IMG/VR virus record: IMGVR_UViG_2585427708_000005
Source: a virus
Lineage: Duplodnaviria > Heunggongvirae > Uroviricota > Caudoviricetes
Direction: 5' to 3' (one strand)
DNA length: 64,000 nt
The position numbers were made by a program, and so were the translations under genes. The notes below the pieces were generated by a model. The model was not told the DNA's origin. It searched no databases and saw only the letters and a list, made by a program, of their open reading frames with translations. This document shows, piece after piece, positions 27,822 to 30,089 of the stretch (its first letter is position 1; each line of letters opens with the position of its first letter).

Positions 27822-27897
27822 TGGTGGCCCCTACCGGACTTGAACCGGTGACCGTGCGATTATGAGTCGCCAGCTCTAACCACTGAGCTAAAGGGCC
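27822..27897 (-). tRNA. tRNA-Ile(CAU)-like (ileX-like; anticodon CAT, could read as Met by anticodon alone)
   Basis: 76 nt cloverleaf with 7-bp acceptor stem, CTCATAA anticodon loop, GGTTCAAGTCC T-arm and CCA end; resembles E. coli ileX. Confidence 0.8.
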
Positions 27898-27924
27898 GGA
27901 TTACTGCCAATTTTGCTTACGCTT

Positions 27925-28752
27925 TTATTTCACCGGAACAAACGGAACAGCGGTATTACTGGTCATATACTGCGGTAATGTACCGTTCCATTTGTTGATC
28001 GCTTCCAAGTCCATAACACCGGGGTTCTGGCGCAGAGCTTCACCACGTAAACGAATGGCATCAGCTTCGGCCTGGGCTTTTGTGCGAATAGCATCAGCCT
28101 GTCCGGCAGCTTCCGCGCGCAGCATGTTGGCCTCTGCTTCACGTTGTTTGACCTCTTGCTCGCGTTGCAGGGTTTTTTGGTTTGCCGTGACTTTGGCGTT
28201 AATACTGTCAATAACTGTTGGCGGGTATTCTGGCTTACCTACATAAGAGAGGCTCATCACCTGAATGCCGATTGGCGTCATTTCTTCCTGAATGTCTTTA
28301 AGGGCTGCATCAAGCAATTCAGATTTGCCACCGTCGATAAATTTGTCGGTGGTCATTTTGCTGGCTAATCGGTTCAGAGCATCTGCAACCTTCTGGCGTA
28401 GATCGGTATCAGTAATATCATCTACACCTTTGCGATAGGTCTGAAATACCGTTGTGACTTTTGCTGGATCAACCTTGTAGGCTACGCCGATGTGGTAACC
28501 AATGGTTGTTCCGTCGCTCATCTGGAAGCTGAACGGCTCATCGTATGTCTTCATTTGCTTAAAGGTCGGGAAGATATAAACTTCAGTATTCAAGCCTGTC
28601 CAGTAGCGACCAACGCCAACTACTTCACCGATACCTTTATCATCCCCCAGCTTATTTACTTTGATCCCTACGTTACCTGGCTCTACCCGATCGCATCCGG
28701 TCAGACATAAAGAACCCAAAATAATCGCTGCACTAATCAACGTTTTTTTCAT
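27925..28752 (-). CDS. plp: SPFH/Band-7 domain lipoprotein
   Basis: 275 aa; lipobox LTGC after the signal peptide; SPFH-like core and Ala/Glu-rich coiled coil. Confidence 0.7.
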   Translation of the reverse strand: MKKTLISAAIILGSLCLTGCDRVEPGNVGIKVNKLGDDKGIGEVVGVGRYWTGLNTEVYIFPTFKQMKTYDEPFSFQMSDGTTIGYHIGVAYKVDPAKVTTVFQTYRKGVDDITDTDLRQKVADALNRLASKMTTDKFIDGGKSELLDAALKDIQEEMTPIGIQVMSLSYVGKPEYPPTVIDSINAKVTANQKTLQREQEVKQREAEANMLRAEAAGQADAIRTKAQAEADAIRLRGEALRQNPGVMDLEAINKWNGTLPQYMTSNTAVPFVPVK

Positions 28753-28969
28753 TAATTAATTTCCTGGTTTTTTCACGAAAAAAGACTACTGCGAAAGCCG
28801 GGTAAATGAGCGCGAGAAGGACTCCCAACAATACAAGTATTGTGCTGTTAGATGAGATCATATTTGGCAAAAGCCAAACATACAGAACCAGTGACACAAT
28901 CAAACAGAGGACGGCATAAATATATAACCGCACCCATAGCGTTCGACATTTGTTCGGATTGTTCTGCAT
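28733..28969 (-). CDS. upl: Small inner-membrane protein upstream of plp
   Basis: 78 aa with two TM helices; overlaps the plp start. Confidence 0.55.
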   Translation of the reverse strand: MQNNPNKCRTLWVRLYIYAVLCLIVSLVLYVWLLPNMISSNSTILVLLGVLLALIYPAFAVVFFREKTRKLINEKNVD

Positions 28970-29140
28970 CCTCTCACTCCATTATTTAACGAATAAAAAA
29001 GCTGCGGTGCCGGGTTCCTCCCGGTGTCCTTTGGCTGGTTATCCACCGTGGACGTGGAAACAAGGAGAAATAATGGACAGATATAACCATTTCCCCGCGT
29101 GCGCTTAGCCGCATTCACCGCAACGGAAAGAGCATTCTTG

Positions 29141-29840
29141 GTGGACCTGTAGATTGGGATATGAACCCGTTACAGGAGAATGCTCTTACCTGTTACGTGC
29201 TCCGTTTCGTGGAGCTAACGGCGGGTGATCAGACCGCACCAGACTGGACTTATTTCAGCGTTATGCTCATGCCAGAGAATCAAACTGTGATGGTCGGTGC
29301 TGAACTCCGACACAGGGTTGTAGCAAGCCCCGCAAAGCGCGCACTACTGTAGTTGCGGCACATCAGCCTGTGCATTCACCACAATGTTGAGAACACTGGT
29401 TGTCACGCGGCAACGCAACATTTATTCGTAGATTGGGATATGACCCCGTTACGCCAGTGTTCTCAACGTTGTAGTTGTTATGCGTATTCTCTTACTAACC
29501 GCACACCAATACATTTCCCATCACGTTCATTTGTCTCGAAACGTGAATACTTAAGTTCGCCGTTAATAATCGCTGTTACAACCCGTATCCCGTTAAACGC
29601 CCACATATTTCGCTCCATTTACACACATTACCAGTCGCCGGTTACGGTTCCGGCCAGGCCTCTTCCTCAACGGGGTGTTCTCCATACGGACTACCGTTTA
29701 TTGGTCGTTCCTGCGGTTTATGTTGTGAAGCCAGATGCTTATCTTCTGGTTGCTTCTAAGATCTGCACTTCATCACAACGGTAAGAGCACTCGATGCATT
29801 TAAGCCAGGCCCCATAAGGGAGAATGCTCTTACCTGTTAT
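29141..29840. repeat. Repeat-rich, structured non-coding region between upl and the tRNA cluster
   Basis: Direct repeats gtagattgggatatga[a/c]cccgttac (29150, 29432) and gagaatgctcttacctgtta (29176, 29820); 18-bp inverted repeat gttgagaacactgg (29383..29400 versus 29453..29470). Confidence 0.5.
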
Positions 29841-29842
29841 GT

Positions 29843-29918
29843 TGGTGCCGATTAACGGGATCGAACCGCTGACCATTCGCTTACAAAGCGACTGCTCTAC
29901 CAACTGAGCTAAATCGGC
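29843..29918 (-). tRNA. tRNA-Thr(UGU)
   Basis: 76 nt; perfect 7-bp acceptor stem GCCGATT/AATCGGC, anticodon loop TTTGTAA, GGTTCGATCC T-arm, CCA end. Confidence 0.85.
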
Positions 29919-29922
29919 AATG

Positions 29923-30009
29923 TGGTGGGGAGTGATGGAGTCGAACCACCCGAGTCGCAATGACAGTAGATTTACAGTCTACCCCGCTACCCCTACGGAC
30001 TAACTCCCC
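29923..30009 (-). tRNA. tRNA-Tyr(GUA), type II with long variable arm
   Basis: 87 nt; acceptor GGGGAGT/ACTCCCC, anticodon stem GTAGA/TCTAC with loop CTGTAAA; resembles E. coli tRNA-Tyr. Confidence 0.8.
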
Positions 30010-30014
30010 TAAAG

Positions 30015-30089
30015 TGGCGATGGTGGGTGGATTCGAACTACCGACCAGTTGGTTAACAGCCAACTGCTCTACCGCTGAGCTACACCATC
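30015..30089 (-). tRNA. tRNA-Asn(GUU)
   Basis: 75 nt; acceptor GATGGTG/CACCATC, anticodon stem GTTGG/CCAAC with loop CTGTTAA, TTCGAATCC T-loop, CCA end. Confidence 0.8.

What the first reader, a model, noticed from the sequence alone, without database searches (positions are those of the whole stretch)
27822..30089. Four phage-encoded tRNAs including a type II tRNA-Tyr
Clean cloverleafs for Ile(CAU), Thr(UGU), Tyr(GUA) and Asn(GUU). From memory, P1 carries three tRNAs (Asn, Thr, Ile), so the tRNA-Tyr packed between Thr and Asn may be additional. The Ile(CAU) tRNA sits alone between plp and ban, where I recall P1 carrying tciABC-like genes that are not present here.
Basis: partly seen in the sequence, partly recalled or inferred. 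Interest (0 to 1): 0.45.

Follow-up and report, generated by a model that had tools for sequence, protein, structure and literature searches.

The report
P1-like phage tRNA array with Tyr
A P1-like phage-plasmid carries four genuine tRNA genes, including an extra tRNA-Tyr that reference P1 lacks; the arrangement is already annotated in public genomes, but the Tyr and Thr tRNAs look like phage versions shown elsewhere to defeat bacterial tRNA-cutting defences.

Summary
Confirmed and ordinary, with one useful twist. ARAGORN and Rfam both call four minus-strand tRNAs at the stated coordinates: Ile2(CAU), Thr(UGU), Tyr(GUA) and Asn(GUU). Reference P1 has only Asn-Thr plus Ile, so Tyr is extra relative to P1. 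The identical four-tRNA locus is already annotated in phage vB_EcoM-Ro157c2YLVW. This tRNA-Tyr occurs, PGAP-annotated, on plasmids in 269 of 5,426 complete E. coli genomes.

Tyr was not simply inserted: the whole Asn-Tyr-Thr block is a swapped allele, 87-88% identical to P1's Asn and Thr but 99-100% to a 109-kb phage-plasmid of another family.

The array lies downstream of a perfect C1 operator (Op72/Pban), as in P1. Codon usage supports a supply role for AUA (2.05x) and ACA (1.64x) but not for Tyr or Asn codons.

The tRNA-Tyr shares an identical variable arm and T arm with T5 and T6 tRNA-Tyr, which experimentally counter retron-Eco7/Septu PtuAB. The Thr allele carries both changes reported to confer resistance to the P2-OLD tRNase, whereas P1's Thr keeps the sensitive, host-like configuration. 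The counter-defence role is inferred, not shown.

The parts
30744..30771 (.). Bivalent C1 repressor operator (P1 Op72ab/Obanab). It overlaps the Pban promoters, which map to about 30742-30787 by homology to the P1 annotation.
   Evidence: A perfect match to the C1 operator consensus lies at 30755-30771(-), with a 2-mismatch partner at 30744-30760(+). The window has 11 such sites against 0.37 expected by chance. The region is about 99% identical to P1, where it is annotated as Obanab/P1ban/P2ban.
30546..30647 (-). Homologue of P1's annotated 'dicF-like region'. It ends in a terminator-like hairpin plus T-run at 30562-30581.
   Evidence: Coordinates transferred from the P1 annotation using the alignment offset. 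Rfam DicF did not score.
30282..30378 (-). Long hairpin 'unit D' in the conserved leader upstream of tRNA-Asn.
   Evidence: MFE -49.4 kcal/mol, z -4.4 on the minus strand, against -33.7 kcal/mol and z -3.5 on the plus strand. It shares the AACAGGTAAG motif with units A-C. The leader is conserved in P1 and D6.
30015..30089 (-). tRNA-Asn(GUU).
   Evidence: ARAGORN; Rfam 69.9 bits. It is 88% identical to P1 Asn, 99% to p09EL50, 95% to an N4-like phage and 64% to host asnT. It has G73, and its anticodon stem lacks the paired CNG motif present in host asnT.
29923..30009 (-). tRNA-Tyr(GUA), with a long variable arm; absent from reference P1.
   Evidence: ARAGORN; Rfam 41.9 bits. It is 100% identical to NC_050153. 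Identity is 93% to rV5, 90% to T6, 84% to T5 and 69% to host tyrU. The variable arm plus T arm is identical to those of rV5, T6 and T5.
29843..29918 (-). tRNA-Thr(UGU), a non-P1 allele.
   Evidence: ARAGORN; Rfam 67.8 bits. It is 87% identical to P1 Thr, 99% to p09EL50 and 79% to host thrU. The anticodon stem lacks CNG on both strands and has a G27.A43 mismatch.
29105..29842 (-). Region with three long hairpin units: A 29105-29205, B 29365-29485 and C 29760-29842. Unit C directly abuts the 3' end of tRNA-Thr. The region overlaps the P1-annotated upl and plp ORF homologues on the opposite strand.
   Evidence: Repeats and inverted repeats with compensatory stem changes. Minus-strand folds give z -4.5, -5.9 and -4.1, stronger than on the plus strand. 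The ORFs have no Pfam match.
27925..28969 (-). Cargo cassette that replaces P1 tciABC: a 275-aa SPFH/Band-7 protein (27925-28752) and an overlapping 78-aa ORF (28733-28969).
   Evidence: Pfam Band_7 at 9.7e-31. No P1 homology across 27906-29003. Annotated as lipoprotein plus membrane protein in NC_050153 and as an SPFH domain protein by PGAP.
27822..27897 (-). tRNA-Ile2(CAU), equivalent to P1 trnI; expected to need host TilS (lysidine) to read AUA.
   Evidence: ARAGORN; Rfam 64.7 bits. It is 100% identical to P1 trnI and 89.5% to ileX, with the same anticodon loop and the C4-G69 and C5-G68 pairs.
26177..27547 (-). ban (DnaB-like replicative helicase), the downstream protein gene of the operon.
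   Evidence: ORF. It is 97.7% identical to P1 ban and is annotated as a DnaB-like helicase in NC_050153.

Best explanation
The locus is the tRNA array of the ban operon of a P1-like (Punavirus) phage-plasmid. Four functional elongator tRNA genes lie on the ban strand, downstream of the C1-repressed promoter Pban. They should therefore be silent in the plasmid prophage and made on infection or induction. Host RNase P and 3' trimming enzymes would then cut them from a polycistronic precursor.

Compared with reference P1, two cassettes have been exchanged by recombination. P1's Asn-Thr pair is replaced by an Asn-Tyr-Thr block that is shared almost identically with an unrelated ~109-kb phage-plasmid family. 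tciABC is replaced by an SPFH-protein cassette.

Functionally the array does two jobs. tRNA-Ile2(CAU) and tRNA-Thr(UGU) supply decoding capacity for AUA and ACA, which the phage uses about twice as often as the host. The swapped block additionally supplies replacement tRNAs that would keep translation going when host tRNA-cutting defences deplete tRNA-Tyr (PtuAB of retron-Eco7 or Septu) or tRNA-Thr(UGU) (OLD-type nucleases).

Shown here: the genes, their identities, the allele swap, the operator context, the codon statistics and the sequence signatures. Inferred: co-transcription from Pban, aminoacylation, and the counter-defence role.
For: Genes are real. The context matches P1: a perfect Op72 operator and a ~99% identical leader. 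P1 tRNA genes are expressed during lytic growth (bioRxiv 10.64898/2025.12.28.696737).

Block swap: Thr and Asn are 87-88% identical to P1's but 99% to p09EL50's, and Tyr is 99-100% identical to that of p09EL50 and pF8704-2_2.

Codon supply: ATA is 10.9 against 5.3 per 1000 codons (2.05x, p=9e-9) and ACA 14.6 against 8.9 (1.64x, p=1e-6). Tyr (1.09x, p=0.19) and Asn (1.03x, p=0.54) show no excess. Tyr-plus and Tyr-minus P1-like backbones are 96-99% identical, so codon demand cannot explain why Tyr is present in some and absent in others.

Counter-defence, Tyr: the tRNA-Tyr is 84-93% identical to T5, T6 and rV5 tRNA-Tyr, with an identical variable arm and T arm. Pair 29:41 varies in a compensatory way (A-U, G-C, U-A). 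T5/SP15 tRNA-Tyr rescues phage from retron-Eco7 PtuAB (PMC11555353). T6 tRNA-Tyr rescues from Septu, which cuts host tRNA-Tyr at C48/A49 of the variable arm (PMC13096335). A 245-tRNA coliphage library screened against PtuAB enriched only for phage tRNA-Tyr (PMC12445682).

Counter-defence, Thr: P2-OLD kills by cutting host tRNA-Thr(UGU) at paired CNG motifs (nt 28-30 and 40-42). Resistance needs both an altered CNG motif and an unpaired 27:43 (PMC12445682). The window's Thr has both, whereas P1's Thr has the host-like CUG/CAG motifs and a full stem. Host asnT and tyrU also carry the paired CNG motif, and the window's Asn and Tyr lack it.
Against: No expression, charging or rescue data exist for this element. 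A terminator-like hairpin lies between Pban and the tRNAs, so co-transcription needs read-through or an unseen promoter. The promoter scan found none.

The anticodon loops of Asn, Tyr and Ile are identical to the host's, and the UGU motif recognised by colicin E5 is retained (PMC1635277). The 'anticodon-loop mutation' route to escape is therefore not used.

T6 tRNA-Tyr, which has the same variable arm, is itself cut by Septu at C48, and it rescues only when amplified (PMC13096335). C48-A49 is conserved in the window's tRNA-Tyr. Purified PtuAB did not cut tRNA-Tyr in vitro (PMC12819146).

I found no evidence that P1 is restricted by PtuAB or OLD systems. The background frequency of the CNG motif among all E. 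coli tRNAs was not measured. The window's Asn has an A52.C62 mismatch.
Confidence: 0.55

Rival explanations
1. Pure codon supplementation. All four tRNAs exist only to boost translation of phage genes whose codon usage differs from the host's. Tyr was added to raise capacity for Tyr-rich late proteins.
For: AUA and ACA are significantly over-used in window ORFs. Some individual ORFs are Tyr- or Asn-rich, for example 48309-48773 with 71 Tyr per 1000 codons, and 48773-49477 and 53147-53821 with 76-81 Asn per 1000. AGA/AGG are about 4x enriched, and some relatives carry tRNA-Arg(UCU) in the Asn slot. Codon supply is the classical view of phage tRNAs.
Against: Overall Tyr and Asn codon use does not differ from the host sample (p=0.19 and 0.54). 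From my own knowledge, the host has multiple tyr and asn genes. Tyr-plus and Tyr-minus P1-like phages have near-identical backbones, so their demand is the same. This model does not explain why the Thr allele specifically loses the OLD cleavage motif and the 27:43 pair.
Confidence: 0.25
2. Neutral passenger. The Asn-Tyr-Thr block arrived by homologous recombination between conserved tRNA or hairpin sequences in co-resident phage-plasmids. It persists without giving any selective benefit beyond what P1's own pair provides.
For: The slot is highly mosaic. It holds Asn-Thr, Asn-Tyr-Thr, Arg-Tyr-Thr, or an added Ser in different relatives. The breakpoints coincide with tRNA ends and hairpin repeats. 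By my rough estimate, only about 100 of roughly 580 plasmids with the P1-type leader carry Tyr.
Against: The tRNA-Tyr keeps an intact cloverleaf and its identity elements (G1-C72, A73, GUA). Across Punavirus, the SSU5-like family, rV5, T6 and T5 it differs only by conservative or compensatory changes. It occurs in 269 genomes at 95% identity or more.
Confidence: 0.15
3. Self-protection or lysogeny function. The tRNAs offset a tRNA-depleting activity encoded by the element itself, comparable to the 'tRNA-dependent lysogeny' of some mycobacteriophages.
For: The phenomenon exists in other temperate phages (PMC10865867, abstract seen). Phage-plasmids often carry defence genes.
Against: The array sits behind a C1-repressed promoter, so it should be off in the lysogen. 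No tRNase-like gene name appeared in the annotated neighbourhoods examined. I did not scan the window systematically for defence genes.
Confidence: 0.05

Closest known systems
Escherichia phage vB_EcoM-Ro157c2YLVW (MH160767 / NC_050153, Punavirus), and P1-like plasmids such as pE2855-2 (NZ_AP018798.1)
   Same: Window 27000-31000 is 99.7% identical to the phage record. The same four tRNAs are annotated there in the same order, with the same SPFH cassette. The three-tRNA cluster is 100% identical in several plasmids and is annotated Tyr/Thr/Asn by PGAP.
   Different: Essentially nothing at this locus. pE2855-2 has an IS1203 next to the cluster and lacks trnI and ban at that position.
Reference phage P1 ban-operon tRNAs: trnA (Asn), trnT (Thr) and trnI (Ile2) (AF234172)
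   Same: Same position between dmt/Pban-Op72 and ban, and same strand. trnI is 100% identical. The leader and operator are about 99% identical.
   Different: P1 has no tRNA-Tyr. Its Asn and Thr are only 88% and 87% identical to the window's. P1 Thr keeps the host-like CUG/CAG motifs and a full anticodon stem. P1 has tciABC where the window has an SPFH cassette.
tRNA-Tyr of T5/SP15, T6 and rV5, the coliphage tRNA-Tyr that counters PtuAB of retron-Eco7 and Septu (PMC11555353, PMC13096335, PMC12445682)
   Same: GUA anticodon, 84-93% identity, and an identical variable arm plus T arm (TGTCATTGCGACTCGGGTGGTTCGACTCCA). All are very different from host tyrU at 64-69% identity.
   Different: Those are in large virulent phages with many tRNAs and strong dedicated promoters or gene amplification. 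Here the gene is in a temperate phage-plasmid behind a repressor-controlled promoter of unknown strength. No rescue has been tested.
Phage tRNA-Thr(UGU) that resist P2-OLD: tRNA-Thr6 and the phage 21 tRNA-Thr (PMC12445682)
   Same: UGU anticodon. The CNG motif is lost through a C28U/G42A-type change and 27:43 is unpaired. These are the two determinants that together confer resistance.
   Different: Sequence relatedness to Thr6 or Thr21 could not be checked because no supplement is held. Resistance of this allele is predicted, not measured.
p09EL50 (NC_018651, E. coli O104:H4) and 'phage CMS-2020a': ~105-113-kb phage-plasmids
   Same: They carry the same Asn-Tyr-Thr block with the same 5- and 4-nt spacers, each tRNA 99% identical to the window's.
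   Different: A different backbone with no P1-type leader, plus an additional tRNA-Ser(UGA) about 490 nt downstream.

Membership tests
tRNA (Rfam RF00005), functional elongator tRNA genes | Cloverleaf that scores above the family's gathering threshold and is called by a dedicated tRNA finder | tested here: met
   ARAGORN calls four genes. Rfam gives 64.7, 67.8, 41.9 and 69.9 bits against a 29-bit threshold.
tRNA (Rfam RF00005), functional elongator tRNA genes | Identity elements for the cognate synthetase. As I recall the established identity rules: Tyr G1-C72/A73/GUA/long arm; Asn G73/GUU; Thr G1-C72, C2-G71, G35U36; Ile2 A73, C4-G69, CAU. | tested here: met
   Read directly from the sequences. 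Actual charging was not tested.
tRNA (Rfam RF00005), functional elongator tRNA genes | Expression, processing and aminoacylation in vivo | not testable with these tools
   There is only indirect support: P1 trnA and trnI transcripts change during P1vir infection.
P1 (Punavirus) ban-operon tRNA array | Located between dmt/Pban with the C1 operator Op72 and ban, on the ban strand | tested here: met
   Operator at 30744-30771; leader about 99% identical to P1; ban 97.7% identical.
P1 (Punavirus) ban-operon tRNA array | Same tRNA set as P1: Asn, Thr and Ile2 only | tested here: not met
   The window has an extra Tyr and divergent Asn and Thr alleles. It is a variant array, identical to that of NC_050153.
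tRNA-Ile2 (lysidine-dependent AUA decoder) | CAU anticodon on an ileX-like body rather than a Met or fMet body | tested here: met
   89.5% identical to ileX, with an identical anticodon loop and the C4-G69 and C5-G68 pairs. 100% identical to P1 trnI. PGAP calls the identical sequence tRNA-Ile.
tRNA-Ile2 (lysidine-dependent AUA decoder) | C34 converted to lysidine by TilS | not testable with these tools
   This needs mass spectrometry or genetics.
Coliphage anti-PtuAB tRNA-Tyr (T5/SP15/T6 type) | Tyr(GUA) tRNA of the phage lineage, with its distinctive variable arm | tested here: met
   84-93% identical, with an identical variable arm and T arm.
Coliphage anti-PtuAB tRNA-Tyr (T5/SP15/T6 type) | High expression from a strong promoter or by gene amplification, which the rescue requires | tested here: inconclusive
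   The only promoter identified is the C1-controlled Pban, by homology. The scan found no consensus promoter, and a terminator-like hairpin intervenes.
Coliphage anti-PtuAB tRNA-Tyr (T5/SP15/T6 type) | Rescues phage or cells from retron-Eco7 or Septu | not testable with these tools
   This needs plaque or toxicity assays.
P2-OLD-resistant phage tRNA-Thr(UGU) | UGU anticodon | tested here: met
P2-OLD-resistant phage tRNA-Thr(UGU) | The paired CNG motif at nt 28-30 and 40-42 is altered | tested here: met
   UCG/CGA in the window, against CUG/CAG in host thrU and in P1 Thr.
P2-OLD-resistant phage tRNA-Thr(UGU) | Shortened anticodon stem (27:43 unpaired) | tested here: met
   G27.A43, flagged as non-canonical by Infernal.
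P2-OLD-resistant phage tRNA-Thr(UGU) | Resists cleavage and rescues OLD toxicity | not testable with these tools
   This needs an in vitro cleavage assay or an Old+Gam viability assay.
Phage tRNAs that escape anticodon nucleases through anticodon-loop mutations (eLife 2023 model, PMC10264068) | The 7-nt anticodon loop differs from that of the host isoacceptor | tested here: not met
   The loops of Asn (CUGUUAA), Tyr (CUGUAAA) and Ile (CUCAUAA) are identical to the host's. Only Thr differs, with U32 against host C32.

The most novel reading that the evidence does not exclude
The tRNA slot of the ban operon in P1-like phage-plasmids is a repressor-controlled, exchangeable 'anti-tRNase' cassette. 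Alleles are traded among phage-plasmid families and virulent coliphages. The block in this window would be an upgraded allele that replaces an OLD-sensitive tRNA-Thr with an OLD-resistant one and adds an anti-PtuAB tRNA-Tyr. That would extend tRNA-based counter-defence, so far demonstrated for the virulent phages T5 and T6 and, for tRNA-Thr, in P2-lambda interference, to P1-like phage-plasmids, and it would show an allelic arms race within a single phage species.
Probability: 0.4. Interest if true: 0.5.

Novelty: already known. Interest (0 to 1): 0.27.

Why it matters
As a genome feature it adds nothing new, because the same four tRNAs are already annotated in a RefSeq phage and in many E. coli plasmids. 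The value lies in the interpretation. P1-like phage-plasmids are common carriers of resistance genes and are widely used as tools. A natural polymorphism exists in their tRNA block: Tyr present or absent, and an OLD-sensitive or OLD-resistant type of Thr. This gives a simple isogenic system to test whether phage tRNAs in temperate elements serve codon supply or defence evasion, a question that is still debated.

Tried and rejected
Literature that could not be used:
- The P1 genome paper (PMC523184) is not held, so P1 facts come from the GenBank annotation.
- A search for 'Ro157c2YLVW' found no paper.
- The P2-OLD paper has no supplement held, so Thr6, Thr21 and Tyr3 could not be compared directly.

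Defence systems checked as possible targets:
- The PARIS paper names only tRNA-Lys as the target and gives no Asn or Thr link.
- For the bacterial Schlafen RorSlfn5, the passages retrieved name Lys, Met and T5 Ala, not Tyr.
- The anticodon-loop escape model was rejected for Asn, Tyr and Ile, whose loops are identical to the host's.
- Escape from colicin E5 by loss of the UGU motif was rejected, because the motif is retained.

Locus features checked:
- The sigma-70 promoter scan found nothing in 27500-31000, not even the annotated Pban, so it is uninformative.
- Rfam at a permissive threshold found no DicF and no known family for the hairpins.
- I looked for a degenerate fifth tRNA (Ser) at the position where relatives have one. 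ARAGORN and Rfam found none.
- The idea that Tyr was simply inserted between P1's Asn and Thr was rejected by the allele identities.
- The 78-aa ORF in the leader (30211-30447) was rejected as a gene, because D6 has frameshifting indels there.
- The chromosomal matches to the cluster query turned out to match only hairpin unit C, in lambdoid prophages that have no tRNAs nearby.
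Full report
**Observation.** Rfam's tRNA model independently calls all four above its threshold, at 64.7, 67.8, 41.9 and 69.9 bits. The lower Tyr score reflects its 13-nt variable-arm insertion. All four encode CCA. Infernal flags one non-canonical pair in Thr (27:43, G.A) and one in the T stem of Asn (A52.C62). ARAGORN labels the CAU tRNA 'Met' by default. However, it is 100% identical to P1 trnI and 89.5% identical to E. coli ileX, with the same anticodon loop and the C4-G69 and C5-G68 pairs. PGAP names the identical sequence tRNA-Ile.

**What the element is.** Window 27000-31000 is 99.7% identical to Escherichia phage vB_EcoM-Ro157c2YLVW (Punavirus). That record already annotates tRNA-Met(cat), Thr, Tyr and Asn in the same order. 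Reference P1 (AF234172) has Asn and Thr 2 nt apart, no Tyr, and trnI just upstream of ban, all downstream of P1ban/P2ban and the bivalent C1 operator Obanab.

The window keeps that context. A perfect C1 operator lies at 30755-30771 and its partner at 30744-30760; the window has 11 operator-like sites against 0.37 expected by chance. The ~650-nt leader down to tRNA-Asn is about 99% identical to P1. ban is 97.7% identical. A terminator-like hairpin at 30562-30581 closes the homologue of P1's 'dicF-like region'. Transcription of the tRNAs from Pban therefore requires read-through and is an inference. A P1vir transcriptome preprint does report regulated trnA and trnI signals during lytic growth.

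**How it differs from P1.** blastn against P1 shows four segments:

| Window segment | Relation to P1 |
|---|---|
| 26003-27906 | 97.7% identical (ban and trnI) |
| 27906-29003 | no homology |
| 29003-29475 | 98.1% identical (P1 upl and the start of plp, on the + strand) |
| 29633-29948 | only 83.7% identical |

The Tyr gene has no P1 counterpart. From 30015 onward the alignment averages 98.75%, although the Asn gene itself is only 88% identical.

The segment without homology holds a 275-aa SPFH/Band-7 protein (Pfam 9.7e-31) and a 78-aa ORF. This cassette replaces tciABC.

Thr is 87% and Asn 88% identical to P1's copies. Each tRNA of the block is nevertheless 99% identical to its counterpart in p09EL50, a 109-kb phage-plasmid of E. 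coli O104:H4 with a different backbone. Tyr therefore arrived as part of a whole-block exchange, not by insertion.

**The slot is combinatorial.** Different elements fill it differently:

| Element | tRNAs in the slot |
|---|---|
| P1 | Asn-Thr |
| D6 | Asn-Thr plus a downstream Ser(UGA) |
| Window and p09EL50 | Asn-Tyr-Thr (p09EL50 also has a downstream Ser) |
| pF8704-2_2 | Arg(UCU)-Tyr-Thr, then Ser, SPFH and Ile |
| N4-like phage 3HA13 | Asn-Ser-Thr with the same spacers (Asn 95% identical to the window's) |
| rV5 | Arg-Tyr, then Ser, then Thr-Met-Pro (Tyr 93% identical) |

**How common it is.** This tRNA-Tyr occurs at 95% identity or more in 269 of 5,426 complete E. coli genomes. It is always on plasmids, never on chromosomes, and nearly all listed copies are annotated tRNA-Tyr by PGAP. 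About 100 genomes have it with P1-type flanks. The window-type Thr allele is in 97 genomes. In the phage collection that allele occurs only in Ro157c2YLVW and one CMS-2020a record; all other P1-like phages have the P1-type Thr. The feature is therefore already known at the level of database annotation. I found no paper that discusses it.

**Function: codon supply.** I compared 47 window ORFs (14,890 codons) with 45 E. coli K-12 ORFs (19,200 codons):

| Codon(s) | Window per 1000 | Host per 1000 | Ratio | p |
|---|---|---|---|---|
| ATA | 10.9 | 5.3 | 2.05 | 9e-9 |
| ACA | 14.6 | 8.9 | 1.64 | 1e-6 |
| Tyr (TAT+TAC) | 31.0 | 28.5 | 1.09 | 0.19 |
| Asn (AAT+AAC) | 44.2 | 42.8 | 1.03 | 0.54 |
| AGA+AGG | 11.1 | 2.9 | 3.89 | 6e-21 |

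AGA and AGG are strongly enriched, yet this element has no tRNA-Arg. Codon supply thus fits Ile2(CAU) and Thr(UGU) but not Tyr or Asn. Tyr-plus and Tyr-minus P1-like phages share 96-99% identical backbones, so genome-wide codon demand cannot explain the polymorphism.

**Function: counter-defence, tRNA-Tyr.** The window's tRNA-Tyr is only 69% identical to host tyrU but 93%, 90% and 84% identical to the tRNA-Tyr of rV5, T6 and T5. The variable arm plus T arm (TGTCATTGCGACTCGGGTGGTTCGACTCCA) is identical in all four. Anticodon-stem pair 29:41 changes in a compensatory way.

Experimental work supports a role for this lineage. T5/SP15 tRNA-Tyr rescues phage from retron-Eco7, whose PtuAB effector depletes host tRNA-Tyr (PMC11555353). 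Septu cuts host tRNA-Tyr at C48/A49 of the variable arm, and T6 tRNA-Tyr rescues when amplified (PMC13096335). In a 245-tRNA coliphage library, the PtuAB screen enriched only for phage tRNA-Tyr (PMC12445682).

There are caveats. T6's tRNA-Tyr, with the same variable arm, is itself cut at C48. C48-A49 is conserved in the window's tRNA-Tyr. Purified PtuAB did not cut tRNA-Tyr in vitro (PMC12819146).

**Function: counter-defence, tRNA-Thr.** P2-OLD kills by cutting host tRNA-Thr(UGU) after the C of paired CNG motifs at nt 28-30 and 40-42. Phage tRNA-Thr(UGU) rescues, and resistance needs both an altered CNG motif and an unpaired 27:43. [quoted passage not shown]

Scoring the alleles gives a clear split:
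- Host thrU has ACUGA/UCAGU, with both CNG motifs and a full stem.
- P1, D6 and pF8704 Thr have CCUGC/GCAGG, also with both CNG motifs and a full stem, so they are predicted sensitive.
- The window and p09EL50 Thr have GUCGC/GCGAA, with no CNG motif on either strand and a G27.A43 mismatch, so both resistance determinants are present.

Host asnT (CGG/CCG) and tyrU (CAG/CUG) also carry the paired CNG motif with A37. The window's Asn (UUG/CAA) and Tyr (UAG/CUA) do not. ileX has no such motif, and the phage Ile arm is almost unchanged. I did not measure how frequent the motif is across all host tRNAs, so this pattern is suggestive only.

The alternative escape route of anticodon-loop mutation (PMC10264068) is not used. 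The loops of Asn, Tyr and Ile equal the host's, and the UGU motif recognised by colicin E5 is retained (PMC1635277).

**Verdict.** The best-supported account is a C1-controlled tRNA array with a swapped Asn-Tyr-Thr block. Ile and Thr supply rare-codon decoding. The Tyr and the new Thr allele carry the sequence hallmarks of phage tRNAs that defeat PtuAB-type and OLD-type tRNA nucleases. The counter-defence role is an inference from homology and motifs, and I give it roughly 40-55% likelihood.

**Side observations.** Four related long hairpins lie on the operon strand:
- unit D, 30282-30378, upstream of Asn;
- unit C, 29760-29842, abutting the 3' end of Thr;
- unit B, 29365-29485;
- unit A, 29105-29205.

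They have compensatory stem changes and fold better on the minus strand. Units A-C overlap the P1-annotated upl and plp ORFs on the opposite strand. Copies of unit C occur between the Q antiterminator and holin genes of lambdoid prophages. Their role is unknown.

In pF8704-2_2 the Asn slot holds a tRNA-Arg(UCU) that shares its acceptor stem and T arm with the window's tRNA-Asn, which suggests tRNA remoulding or recombination within the gene.

Noticed in passing
window 29105-29205, 29365-29485, 29760-29842 and 30282-30378 (minus strand): A family of four long imperfect hairpins brackets the tRNA trio. They share the motifs AACAGGTAAGAGC...CTTTCCGTTG and show compensatory stem changes in unit B. 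They fold better on the operon strand (z -4.1 to -5.9). Units A-C overlap the homologues of P1's annotated upl and plp ORFs on the opposite strand, which raises doubt about those ORFs. Near-identical copies of unit C lie between the Q antiterminator and holin genes of lambdoid prophages (L011, L012), with no tRNAs nearby. No Rfam family matches.
   Followed up: partly
L010 2736-2812 (pF8704-2_2, NZ_CP050999.1): The Asn slot holds a tRNA-Arg(UCU). Its acceptor stem and T arm are the same as in the window's tRNA-Asn, but its D loop (GGAUA, with A20) and anticodon arm are Arg-like. This looks like a remoulded or chimeric tRNA. It fits the ~4x excess of AGA/AGG codons in the phage genes.
   Followed up: partly
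window 27925-28969: An SPFH/Band-7 protein (275 aa) and an overlapping 78-aa ORF replace P1's tciABC between the hairpin region and trnI. The same cassette occurs in RCS47, 813R1 and pF8704-2_2, independently of whether Tyr is present. This slot is therefore exchanged separately from the tRNA slot.
   Followed up: partly
window 30090-30560: The ~470-nt leader between the dicF-like terminator and tRNA-Asn is highly conserved in P1 and D6. The 78-aa ORF it contains (30211-30447) is broken by indels in D6, so the conservation is probably at the RNA or DNA level.
   Followed up: partly
window 30015-30089: The window's tRNA-Asn has an A52.C62 mismatch in its T stem. The p09EL50 allele has G52-C62. 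This may slightly weaken the tRNA.
   Followed up: no
window 30762-34049: The dmt ORF is 1095 aa here, as in Ro157c2YLVW and pE2855-2, against 754 aa for Dmt in reference P1. This is a longer or fused methyltransferase.
   Followed up: no
window 102-189, 214-291, 52795-52880, 52948-53000: Rfam finds two C4 antisense RNA genes, an isrK-like sRNA and a c4 a1b1 target element. This means two immunity-type C4 loci within the 64-kb window.
   Followed up: no
window 29003-29122 (minus strand): A sub-threshold Rfam match to the sRNA STnc100 (38 bits against a gathering score of 47, E 5.6e-6 for the 3.5-kb search), just downstream of the small membrane ORF.
   Followed up: no
L010 1-82 (pF8704-2_2): A Thoeris anti-defence Tad2-family gene lies just beyond trnI, where P1 has ban. 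An anti-defence gene next to the tRNA array fits the idea that this region collects counter-defence functions.
   Followed up: no
window-wide: 366, 3672, 14528, 16620, 16669, 20293, 35300, 51391 and 53061, plus 30744/30755: There are eleven C1-operator-like sites (three or fewer mismatches to ATTGCTCTAATAAATTT) against 0.37 expected by chance. Together they map the C1 regulon of this element.
   Followed up: no
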